DNA of 18,580 bases from a virus. Numbering within the stretch: the stretch's first letter is position 1; each line of letters begins with the position of its first letter. Of this stretch, positions 18,201-18,580 are shown one piece after another. The stretch lies in UHGV virus genome UHGV-0153540; one strand, 5' to 3'. The position numbers are program-made.

Positions 18201-18580
18201 CGTCCTTTATTTTTGGCATAAACAACAGAATAAACACTGCACTGTGTATTCATTCCAACGAGTGAATACACGGAGCAATGTCGCTCGTAACCAAACAGGA
18301 GCCGACTTGTTCTGATTATTGGAAATCTTCTTTGCCCTCCAGTGTGAGGGCCTTTTTATATGCATACCAATAACGCTTCACTCGAGGCGTTTTTCGTTAT
18401 GTATAAATAAGGAGCACACCATGCAATATGCCATTGCAGGGTGGCCTGTTGCTGGCTGCCCTTCCGAATCTTTACTTGAACGAATCACCCGTAAATTACG
18501 TGACTGAACCGCCCCGGGTTTCCTGGAGAGTATTTTATCTGTGAACTCAGGCTGCCAGATCATCGTTTCCGATGGAAGCA

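What the first reader, a model, noticed from the sequence alone, without database searches (positions are those of the whole stretch)
18421..18580. cIII ends prematurely after 28 codons; downstream sequence diverges
The first 28 residues match lambda CIII as I recall it, then a TGA stop follows. None of the three downstream frames encodes the remaining CIII residues, so this is not a simple frameshift. Because the region implicated in CIII function extends beyond residue 28, this allele is probably inactive, or the junction marks a recombination breakpoint. The window ends about 70 nt later, so the context is incomplete.
Basis: partly seen in the sequence, partly recalled or inferred. Interest (0 to 1): 0.4.

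Follow-up and report, generated by a model that had tools for sequence, protein, structure and literature searches.

The report
IS629 insertion truncating phage cIII gene
The lambda-type cIII lysogeny gene of this prophage is cut after codon 28 by the end of a common E. coli jumping gene (IS629), whose first three bases supply the stop codon; this is an ordinary gene knockout by a mobile element, and the contig ends there because assemblers break at repeated elements.

Summary
Window 18421-18507 encodes the first 28 residues of lambda CIII (100% identical, also at the nucleotide level from the ribosome-binding site onward) followed by TGA. No downstream frame continues CIII.

The cause is neither a short natural allele nor phage-phage mosaic recombination. 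At 18505 the sequence switches, base for base, to the right terminal inverted repeat of the 1,310-bp insertion sequence IS629 (IS3 family). The match is 76/76 identical, and this end occurs at about 23,600 places in 3,975 of 5,426 complete E. coli genomes. The TGA stop is the first three bases of the IS. The transposase C-terminus (…ASIGNDDLAA*) lies on the minus strand at 18547-18579.

The window is a whole SPAdes-named metagenome contig (ENA ERZ773520 NODE_4512), so it stops inside the repeat and the far side cannot be read.

The product lacks residues 29-37 of the 14-37 region that is essential for FtsH inhibition, so cIII is very probably null. CII is intact.

This exact junction was found in none of the collections searched. 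Independent IS629-family insertions in cIII do occur at +101 (strain 14EC007) and +124 (phage phi330), and others lie in kil and gam.

Verdict: ordinary, already-known biology; low interest.

The parts
18390..18420 (+). cIII 5' untranslated region with the ribosome-binding site (AAGGAG), intact
   Evidence: Base-for-base identical to lambda and to the AR_0017 prophage in alignment A1.
18421..18507 (+). Truncated cIII: codons 1-28 (18421-18504) plus a TGA stop (18505-18507) supplied by the IS
   Evidence: Pfam Lambda_CIII profile positions 1-27 of 42, E = 9e-17.
18502..18504 (.). Presumed target site (GAC, or TGAC if 4 bp) that would be duplicated on the far side of the IS if this is a simple insertion
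   Evidence: Inference. IS629 makes 3-4-bp duplications (PMC3271280). Examples seen here: CTT in L001; GGAG, GAG, ACC, GCAT, GGG, CCC and TAT in other loci. The far side is not in the window.
18505..18580 (-). Right (OrfB-proximal) end of IS629, read inward from its terminal inverted repeat; the window and the contig end inside it
   Evidence: 76/76 identical to the 1,310-bp copy at L001 2501-3810. That copy is 99.8% identical to elements annotated by depositors as 'IS3 family IS629'. The 14-nt IR core TGAACCGCCCCGGG occurs once in the window.
18547..18579 (-). Last 10 codons and stop of the IS629 transposase OrfB (ASIGNDDLAA*)
   Evidence: It matches the C-terminus of the 296-aa OrfB of the complete copy.
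13754..14053 (-). Intact cII (99 aa), the protein that CIII normally protects from FtsH
   Evidence: Pfam Phage_CII profile positions 1-91 of 91, E = 5.7e-34.
17242..17514 (+). N antiterminator gene of the pL operon, upstream of cIII
   Evidence: Pfam N_peptide, E = 1e-31.
17576..18199 (+). Nmad5-family gene immediately upstream of cIII (takes the place of lambda ea10/ral)
   Evidence: Pfam Nmad5, E = 3.8e-71. The same arrangement occurs in the AR_0017 and CE10 prophages.

Best explanation
A copy of the insertion sequence IS629 (IS3 family, 1,310 bp) abuts codon 28 of a lambda-type cIII gene in a P22-like lambdoid prophage of E. coli. The IS is oriented with its transposase genes antisense to pL transcription. 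Its terminal bases TGA fall in frame and stop translation, so the product is a 28-residue CIII fragment. The fragment keeps the N-terminus and residues 14-28 but lacks residues 29-37 of the amphipathic helix needed to inhibit FtsH. The cIII allele is therefore most probably null. After infection, CII would be degraded faster by FtsH and lysogenisation frequency would fall (a clear-plaque tendency). Lytic growth and maintenance of the existing prophage would not be affected. The contig ends 76 nt into the IS because the element is multi-copy and the short-read metagenome assembler could not traverse it. Shown here: the junction, the identity and orientation of the IS, truncation at residue 28, an intact cII, and that the window is the whole contig. 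Inferred: loss of CIII function, the phenotype, the reason for the contig break, and that the rest of the IS and of cIII lie beyond.
For: Alignment A1 shows the window identical to lambda cIII up to 18504 and identical to the IS terminus from 18505 to 18580. 76/76 bases match a complete 1,310-bp element with imperfect terminal inverted repeats, OrfA/OrfB with a programmed frameshift, and a 3-bp CTT duplication. That element is 99.8% identical to copies annotated 'IS3 family IS629'. The 76-nt end occurs at 23,615 places in 3,975 of 5,426 complete E. coli genomes. The OrfB C-terminus is on the minus strand at 18547-18579. All phage and genome homology to cIII stops at 18504/18507. The phage part of the window and IS629 share no exact word longer than 13 nt, so a k-mer graph misjoin is excluded. 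Independent IS629-family insertions in cIII lie at +101 with a TAT duplication in strain 14EC007 and at +124 with a GGAG duplication in phage phi330; others lie in kil and gam. CIII residues 14-37 are essential and sufficient, and S17A, R24A, L26A, R27A and R32A are cIII-minus (PMC1838920). IS629 makes 3-4-bp duplications, and 62% of its copies in O157:H7 genomes are in prophages (PMC3271280). The window is the whole contig NODE_4512_length_18580_cov_4.25 of ENA ERZ773520.
Against: Only 76 nt of the IS are visible. The far junction, the target-site duplication and the remainder of cIII are not in the window. Neither junction was found in complete E. coli genomes, GTDB representative genomes, IMG/VR or JGI metagenome contigs. 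Contig coverage is only about 4x, so few reads support the junction. Loss of function of the 28-residue peptide is inferred from published mutants, not measured.
Confidence: 0.9

Rival explanations
1. IS-associated deletion or rearrangement rather than a simple insertion. IS629 first landed further downstream (kil, gam or beyond) or elsewhere, and an adjacent deletion or inter-IS recombination then removed the DNA between its right end and cIII codon 28. The rest of cIII, and possibly kil-gam-bet-exo-xis-int, would then be absent and the prophage may be defective. The effect on cIII itself is the same.
For: Such events leave exactly the junction seen here. Two of the ten same-orientation IS629 copies examined in the cIII-kil-gam stretch have no target duplication and are followed by unrelated DNA: L010 has a replication gene after the IS, and L012 is similar. 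The predicted far junction (IS left end + 0-8 nt + GGATGGAAACG) was not found in IMG/VR or GTDB genomes; the single hit, L004, is a chance match.
Against: Most copies at this locus (8 of 11 examined, counting 14EC007) are simple insertions with 3-4-bp duplications. Absence of the far junction from the databases is expected for a rare allele, because the near junction is absent too.
Confidence: 0.2
2. Assembly or library artefact: a chimeric read or misjoin in a low-coverage (about 4x) metagenome assembly fused an intact cIII to an IS629 copy located elsewhere.
For: Coverage is 4.25x, the assembly is a metagenome, and the junction is at a contig end. The exact junction was found nowhere else.
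Against: The join falls exactly on the first base of the IS terminal inverted repeat, as transposition requires; a random chimera would hit that base in roughly 1 of 1,310 positions (inference). No word longer than 13 nt is shared between the phage part and IS629, nor more than 10 nt between the lambda cIII region and IS629, so no graph path could link them by homology. Real insertions of the same element occur 17 and 40 nt away in other genomes.
Confidence: 0.04
3. One reading: a naturally short CIII type, or a mosaic recombination joint with a different phage module downstream.
For: Lambdoid phages are mosaic. Shorter annotated CIII variants exist, for example a 46-aa CIII in the AR_0017 prophage caused by TCA to TAA at codon 47.
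Against: The downstream 76 nt are not phage sequence. They are 100% identical to the IS629 terminus and encode the transposase C-terminus on the other strand. No phage or genome record carries a 28-codon cIII.
Confidence: 0.01

Closest known systems
IS629 (isoforms IS1203, IS3411), IS3 family, as described in E. coli O157:H7 and Shigella
   Same: The visible 76 nt are identical to the right end of a 1,310-bp element that is 99.8% identical to depositor-annotated IS629. They share the same terminal repeat core TGAACCGCCCCGGG and the same OrfB C-terminus. The location in a lambdoid prophage is typical, since 62% of IS629 copies in four O157:H7 genomes are in prophages (PMC3271280).
   Different: Only the terminus is visible. 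This insertion point (cIII nt +84) was not found in any collection searched.
IS629-family insertions in cIII of E. coli 14EC007 (NZ_CP024131, +101) and phage vB_EcoS_phi330 (PV189401, +124)
   Same: The same gene is hit by the same IS family, and the cIII reading frame is truncated within or just after the essential 14-37 region. phi330 has the same orientation.
   Different: The positions and target duplications differ (TAT, GGAG). In 14EC007 the orientation is opposite and the copy is only 96.4% identical to the IS629 reference copy used here. In both cases the far side is present, with the 3' part of cIII and then kil and gam following; here that cannot be seen.
Classical lambda cIII-minus mutants (e.g. 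cIII67) and alanine mutants of the 14-37 region
   Same: The expected consequence is the same: no FtsH inhibition, unstable CII, reduced lysogenisation and clear plaques (PMC1838920).
   Different: Those are point mutants studied experimentally. This is an insertional truncation inferred from sequence, in a P22-like rather than lambda-like virion background.

Membership tests
Lambda CIII (Pfam PF02061, FtsH-inhibitory lysogeny factor) | Sequence match to the CIII family over its conserved core | tested here: met
   Residues 1-28 are 100% identical to lambda CIII. Pfam Lambda_CIII E = 9e-17, but only profile positions 1-27 of 42.
Lambda CIII (Pfam PF02061, FtsH-inhibitory lysogeny factor) | Complete 24-residue amphipathic region (residues 14-37) that is essential and sufficient for activity | tested here: not met
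   The ORF stops after residue 28, so residues 29-37 (including R32, whose Ala mutant is null) are absent (PMC1838920). It is therefore a disrupted cIII gene, not a functional member.
Lambda CIII (Pfam PF02061, FtsH-inhibitory lysogeny factor) | Genomic position in the pL operon downstream of N, in a phage that also encodes CII | tested here: met
   N lies at 17242-17514, Nmad5 at 17576-18199 and cIII at 18421 on the same strand; cII lies at 13754-14053 on the minus strand.
Lambda CIII (Pfam PF02061, FtsH-inhibitory lysogeny factor) | Inhibition of FtsH and stabilisation of CII | not testable with these tools
   Needs a lysogenisation or CII-stability assay.
IS629 (IS3 family) | Terminal inverted repeat beginning 5'-TG, matching the IS629 end | tested here: met
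   18505-18580 is 76/76 identical to the right end of the complete copy; the IR core TGAACCGCCCCGGG is at 18505-18518.
IS629 (IS3 family) | Near-identity of the element to named IS629 | tested here: met
   The complete copy that matches the window tail 100% is 99.8% identical over 1,310 bp to elements annotated 'IS3 family IS629', with OrfA and OrfB. For the window itself this holds for the visible 76 nt only.
IS629 (IS3 family) | OrfA/OrfB transposase with programmed -1 frameshift | tested here: inconclusive
   Only the last 10 codons of OrfB are in the window. The complete reference copy has OrfA (108 aa), OrfB (296 aa) and an annotated frameshift.
IS629 (IS3 family) | 3-4-bp target-site duplication flanking the element | not testable with these tools
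   The far end lies beyond the contig end. Scans for the predicted far junction found nothing genuine.

The most novel reading that the evidence does not exclude
The cIII-kil-gam segment of lambdoid pL operons may be a preferred, orientation-biased landing zone for IS629. At least 11 distinct sites lie within about 540 bp. 23-25 genomes carry the element antisense to pL, against 3 in the sense orientation. If so, loss of cIII (whose product is bacteriostatic through FtsH inhibition), kil or gam would be recurrently selected during prophage domestication, and this allele would be one more instance. Alternatively, the CIII(1-28) fragment might keep a partial or dominant-negative activity.
Probability: 0.12. 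Interest if true: 0.3.

Novelty: already known. Interest (0 to 1): 0.07.

Why it matters
It matters little beyond annotation. The record should read 'cIII, disrupted by IS629'. The contig end should be treated as a repeat-induced assembly break, not as a biological boundary or a novel short CIII type. For this phage it predicts a lysogenisation defect. More generally, it is one more example of IS629 eroding early-left-operon genes of lambdoid prophages in E. coli.

Tried and rejected
(1) I looked for the same junction elsewhere so as to read past the window end. There was none in 5,426 complete E. coli genomes, GTDB representative genomes, IMG/VR or JGI metagenome contigs.

(2) I looked for the predicted far junction (IS left end + 0-8 nt + GGATGGAAACG). 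There was none in IMG/VR. The single hit in GTDB genomes, in an Alphaproteobacteria MAG (L004), is a chance match, because its flanking sequence is not IS629.

(3) An exact-protein lookup of the neighbouring Nmad5 gene returned only the source contig itself, so no longer sibling contig is available.

(4) A frameshift or an alternative frame carrying the rest of CIII is rejected.

(5) A graph misassembly through shared k-mers is rejected: the longest shared word is 13 nt.

(6) The best whole-window relative, the VR50 prophage (99% identity over 71% of the window), has a different gene at the cIII position from about 18441 onward and its own IS3-family copy elsewhere, so it does not help reconstruct the far side.

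(7) A consensus terminator and promoter scan of the full IS found nothing above shuffle expectation, so no statement about polarity can be based on it.

Full report
**Observation.** The window carries an ORF that starts at ATG 18421 and ends with TGA at 18505-18507. It encodes MQYAIAGWPVAGCPSESLLERITRKLRD. Lambda CIII, translated directly from J02459 (33299-33463, complement), is the 54-residue MQYAIAGWPVAGCPSESLLERITRKLRDGWKRLIDILNQPGVPKNGSNTYGYPD. The first 28 residues are therefore identical. A DNA alignment shows the window identical to lambda from 31 nt upstream of the ATG, including the AAGGAG ribosome-binding site, through codon 28. None of the three forward frames after 18504 encodes the remaining CIII residues. 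The Pfam Lambda_CIII profile is matched over positions 1-27 of 42 only.

**What follows codon 28.** Homology of all phage and E. coli records to the cIII region stops at 18504 (or 18507, through two coincidentally matching bases).
- The remaining 76 bases (18505-18580) match features annotated 'IS3 family transposase' at 23,615 places in 3,975 of 5,426 complete E. coli genomes, many at 100% identity.
- One complete copy (L001 2501-3810) is 1,310 bp long. It starts TGAACCGCCCCGGGTTTCCTGGAGAG and ends with the imperfect inverted repeat ...CTCCAGGATTCCCGGGGCGGTTCA. It encodes OrfA (108 aa) and OrfB (296 aa) joined by an annotated programmed frameshift, and it is flanked by a 3-bp CTT duplication inside an IS66 tnpB gene.
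- The window tail is 76/76 identical to that copy.
- That copy is 99.8% identical to elements that depositors annotate as 'insertion sequence: IS3 family IS629' with IS629 OrfA/OrfB. PGAP calls some copies 'IS3-like element IS1203 family', an IS629 isoform (PMC3271280).
- In the window the element is read from its OrfB-proximal (right) end inward. The last ten codons of OrfB, ASIGNDDLAA*, lie on the minus strand at 18547-18579 and match the OrfB C-terminus of the complete copy.
- The stop codon of the truncated cIII is thus the first three bases (TGA) of the IS terminal repeat.

**Why the window ends there.** An exact-protein lookup of the adjacent Nmad5 gene returned a single contig, ENA ERZ773520 NODE_4512_length_18580_cov_4.252878. 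Its length equals the window's, and the gene sits at the same coordinates. The window is therefore a complete contig from a SPAdes-named metagenome assembly at about 4x coverage. Its end inside a multi-copy IS is the expected repeat-induced break (inference). The far side of the IS cannot be read.

**Is the junction real?** The phage part of the contig and IS629 share no exact word longer than 13 nt. The lambda cIII region shares none longer than 10 nt with IS629. An assembler could therefore not have joined them through a shared k-mer. A chimeric read remains formally possible at 4x coverage. However, the join falls exactly on the first base of the terminal inverted repeat, which transposition demands and a random chimera would rarely give (inference). 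The IR core occurs nowhere else in the window.

**Is this allele known?** The exact junction was found in none of the following: 5,426 complete E. coli genomes, GTDB representative genomes, IMG/VR and JGI metagenome contigs. The predicted far junction gave nothing in IMG/VR and one chance hit in an alphaproteobacterial MAG.

The phenomenon itself is not new. Independent IS629-family insertions within cIII occur at two other sites:
- +124 in phage vB_EcoS_phi330: same orientation, GGAG duplication.
- +101 in E. coli 14EC007: opposite orientation, TAT duplication, with the 3' remnant of cIII followed by kil, gam and bet on the far side.

Further copies in the window's orientation lie at +266, +279, +286, +386, +397, +435, +497 and +541 from the cIII ATG, in kil, gam or between them. 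Most have 3-4-bp duplications. Two (L010, L012) have none and are followed by unrelated DNA, which shows that IS-associated rearrangements also occur at this locus. The literature reports 3-4-bp duplications for IS629 and a strong bias of its copies towards prophages, 62% in four O157:H7 genomes (PMC3271280).

**Context.** The contig is the right-to-left early region and part of the late region of a P22-like lambdoid prophage.
- It carries a portal fragment, the large terminase (1270-2766, minus strand), lysis genes, Q (7092-7610), the nin region, a primase-helicase (10803-12683) and a replication-initiator-like HTH protein (12791-13591).
- It also carries cII (13754-14053), cro (14192-14392) and an S24-type repressor (14493-15206).
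- Two genes sit in the rexAB position. They are followed by N (17242-17514), an Nmad5-family gene (17576-18199) and cIII.
- CII is full length (Pfam Phage_CII 1-91/91, E = 5.7e-34). The CII/CIII/FtsH lysogeny circuit is therefore present except for the broken cIII.

**Mechanism and consequence.**
- Shown: translation of cIII ends after residue 28, at an IS-borne stop codon.
[quoted passage not shown] Single substitutions S17A, R24A, L26A, R27A and R32A give a cIII-minus phenotype. CIII acts as an oligomeric competitive inhibitor of FtsH that protects CII.
- Inferred: the 28-residue product lacks 9 of the 24 essential residues, including R32, and is therefore very probably inactive. After infection, CII would be degraded faster and lysogenisation frequency would drop.
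- Inferred: lytic growth and repressor maintenance do not need CIII. This is consistent with phi330, which also has a disrupted cIII and was deposited as a complete phage genome with a named host.
- Not known: whether downstream pL genes are still present or expressed. A consensus scan of the IS gave no terminator signal above shuffle expectation.

**Rivals.**
- IS-associated adjacent deletion or inter-IS recombination instead of a simple insertion. The effect on cIII is the same. This is plausible (about 0.2), given the two examples at this locus that lack a duplication.
- Assembly or read chimera. This is unlikely (about 0.04), for the reasons above.
- A natural short CIII type or a phage-phage mosaic joint. 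This is refuted, because the downstream sequence is IS629.

**Comparison and verdict.** This is a known gene (lambda-type cIII) disrupted by a known element (IS629) in a typical host context (an E. coli lambdoid prophage). As a CIII family member it fails the defining feature of a complete 14-37 region, so it should be annotated as a disrupted gene. The insertion site itself appears to be new to the collections searched, but the kind of event is already known. The recurrent, mostly same-orientation IS629 copies in cIII-kil-gam are a minor lead that was not tested against a baseline. Interest is low.

Noticed in passing
window 18421-18580; loci L006, L007, L009-L017: IS629/IS1203 copies recur in the cIII-kil-gam stretch of lambdoid pL operons at 11 or more distinct sites within about 540 bp (+84, +101, +124, +266, +279, +286, +386, +397, +435, +497, +541 from the cIII ATG). 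23-25 complete genomes carry the element antisense to pL, against 3 in the sense orientation. This was not compared with IS629 density elsewhere in prophages, and lineage effects were not removed, so a hotspot or orientation bias is unproven.
   Followed up: partly
window 15326-15871 and 15868-16797 (+): Two co-oriented, overlapping genes lie directly downstream of the S24-type repressor (14493-15206), in the position lambda gives to rexAB. The first is a DUF6932 protein (Pfam E = 1.5e-25) that also hits the PADLOC candidate defence family PDC-M63A (E = 2e-10). The second is a 309-aa protein with no Pfam or PADLOC hit. They may form a prophage-borne defence pair.
   Followed up: partly
L005 1822-1962 (E. 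coli AR_0017, NZ_CP024886): The closest intact relative of this pL region has a 46-aa CIII, caused by a TCA-to-TAA change at codon 47. PGAP still annotates it as CIII. It keeps the whole 14-37 region, so it is probably functional.
   Followed up: no
L003 17326-18554 (E. coli VR50) versus window about 10720-10803: The best whole-window relative (99% identity) carries its own IS3-family element between an HNH endonuclease gene and the primase gene. The window has none there. VR50 also has a different small gene at the cIII position. Both show independent IS traffic and mosaicism in this phage lineage.
   Followed up: no
window 17576-18199 (+): An Nmad5-family ('nucleotide modification associated domain 5') gene occupies the slot between N and cIII that lambda fills with ral/ea10 (Pfam E = 3.8e-71). 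The exact protein sequence was on record on only this one contig.
   Followed up: no
L010 (NZ_CM149872) and L012 (NZ_CP114128): The IS629 copies next to kil in these two genomes lack target-site duplications and are followed by unrelated DNA (a replication gene in L010). This indicates IS-mediated deletion or rearrangement of the early-left region in these prophages.
   Followed up: partly
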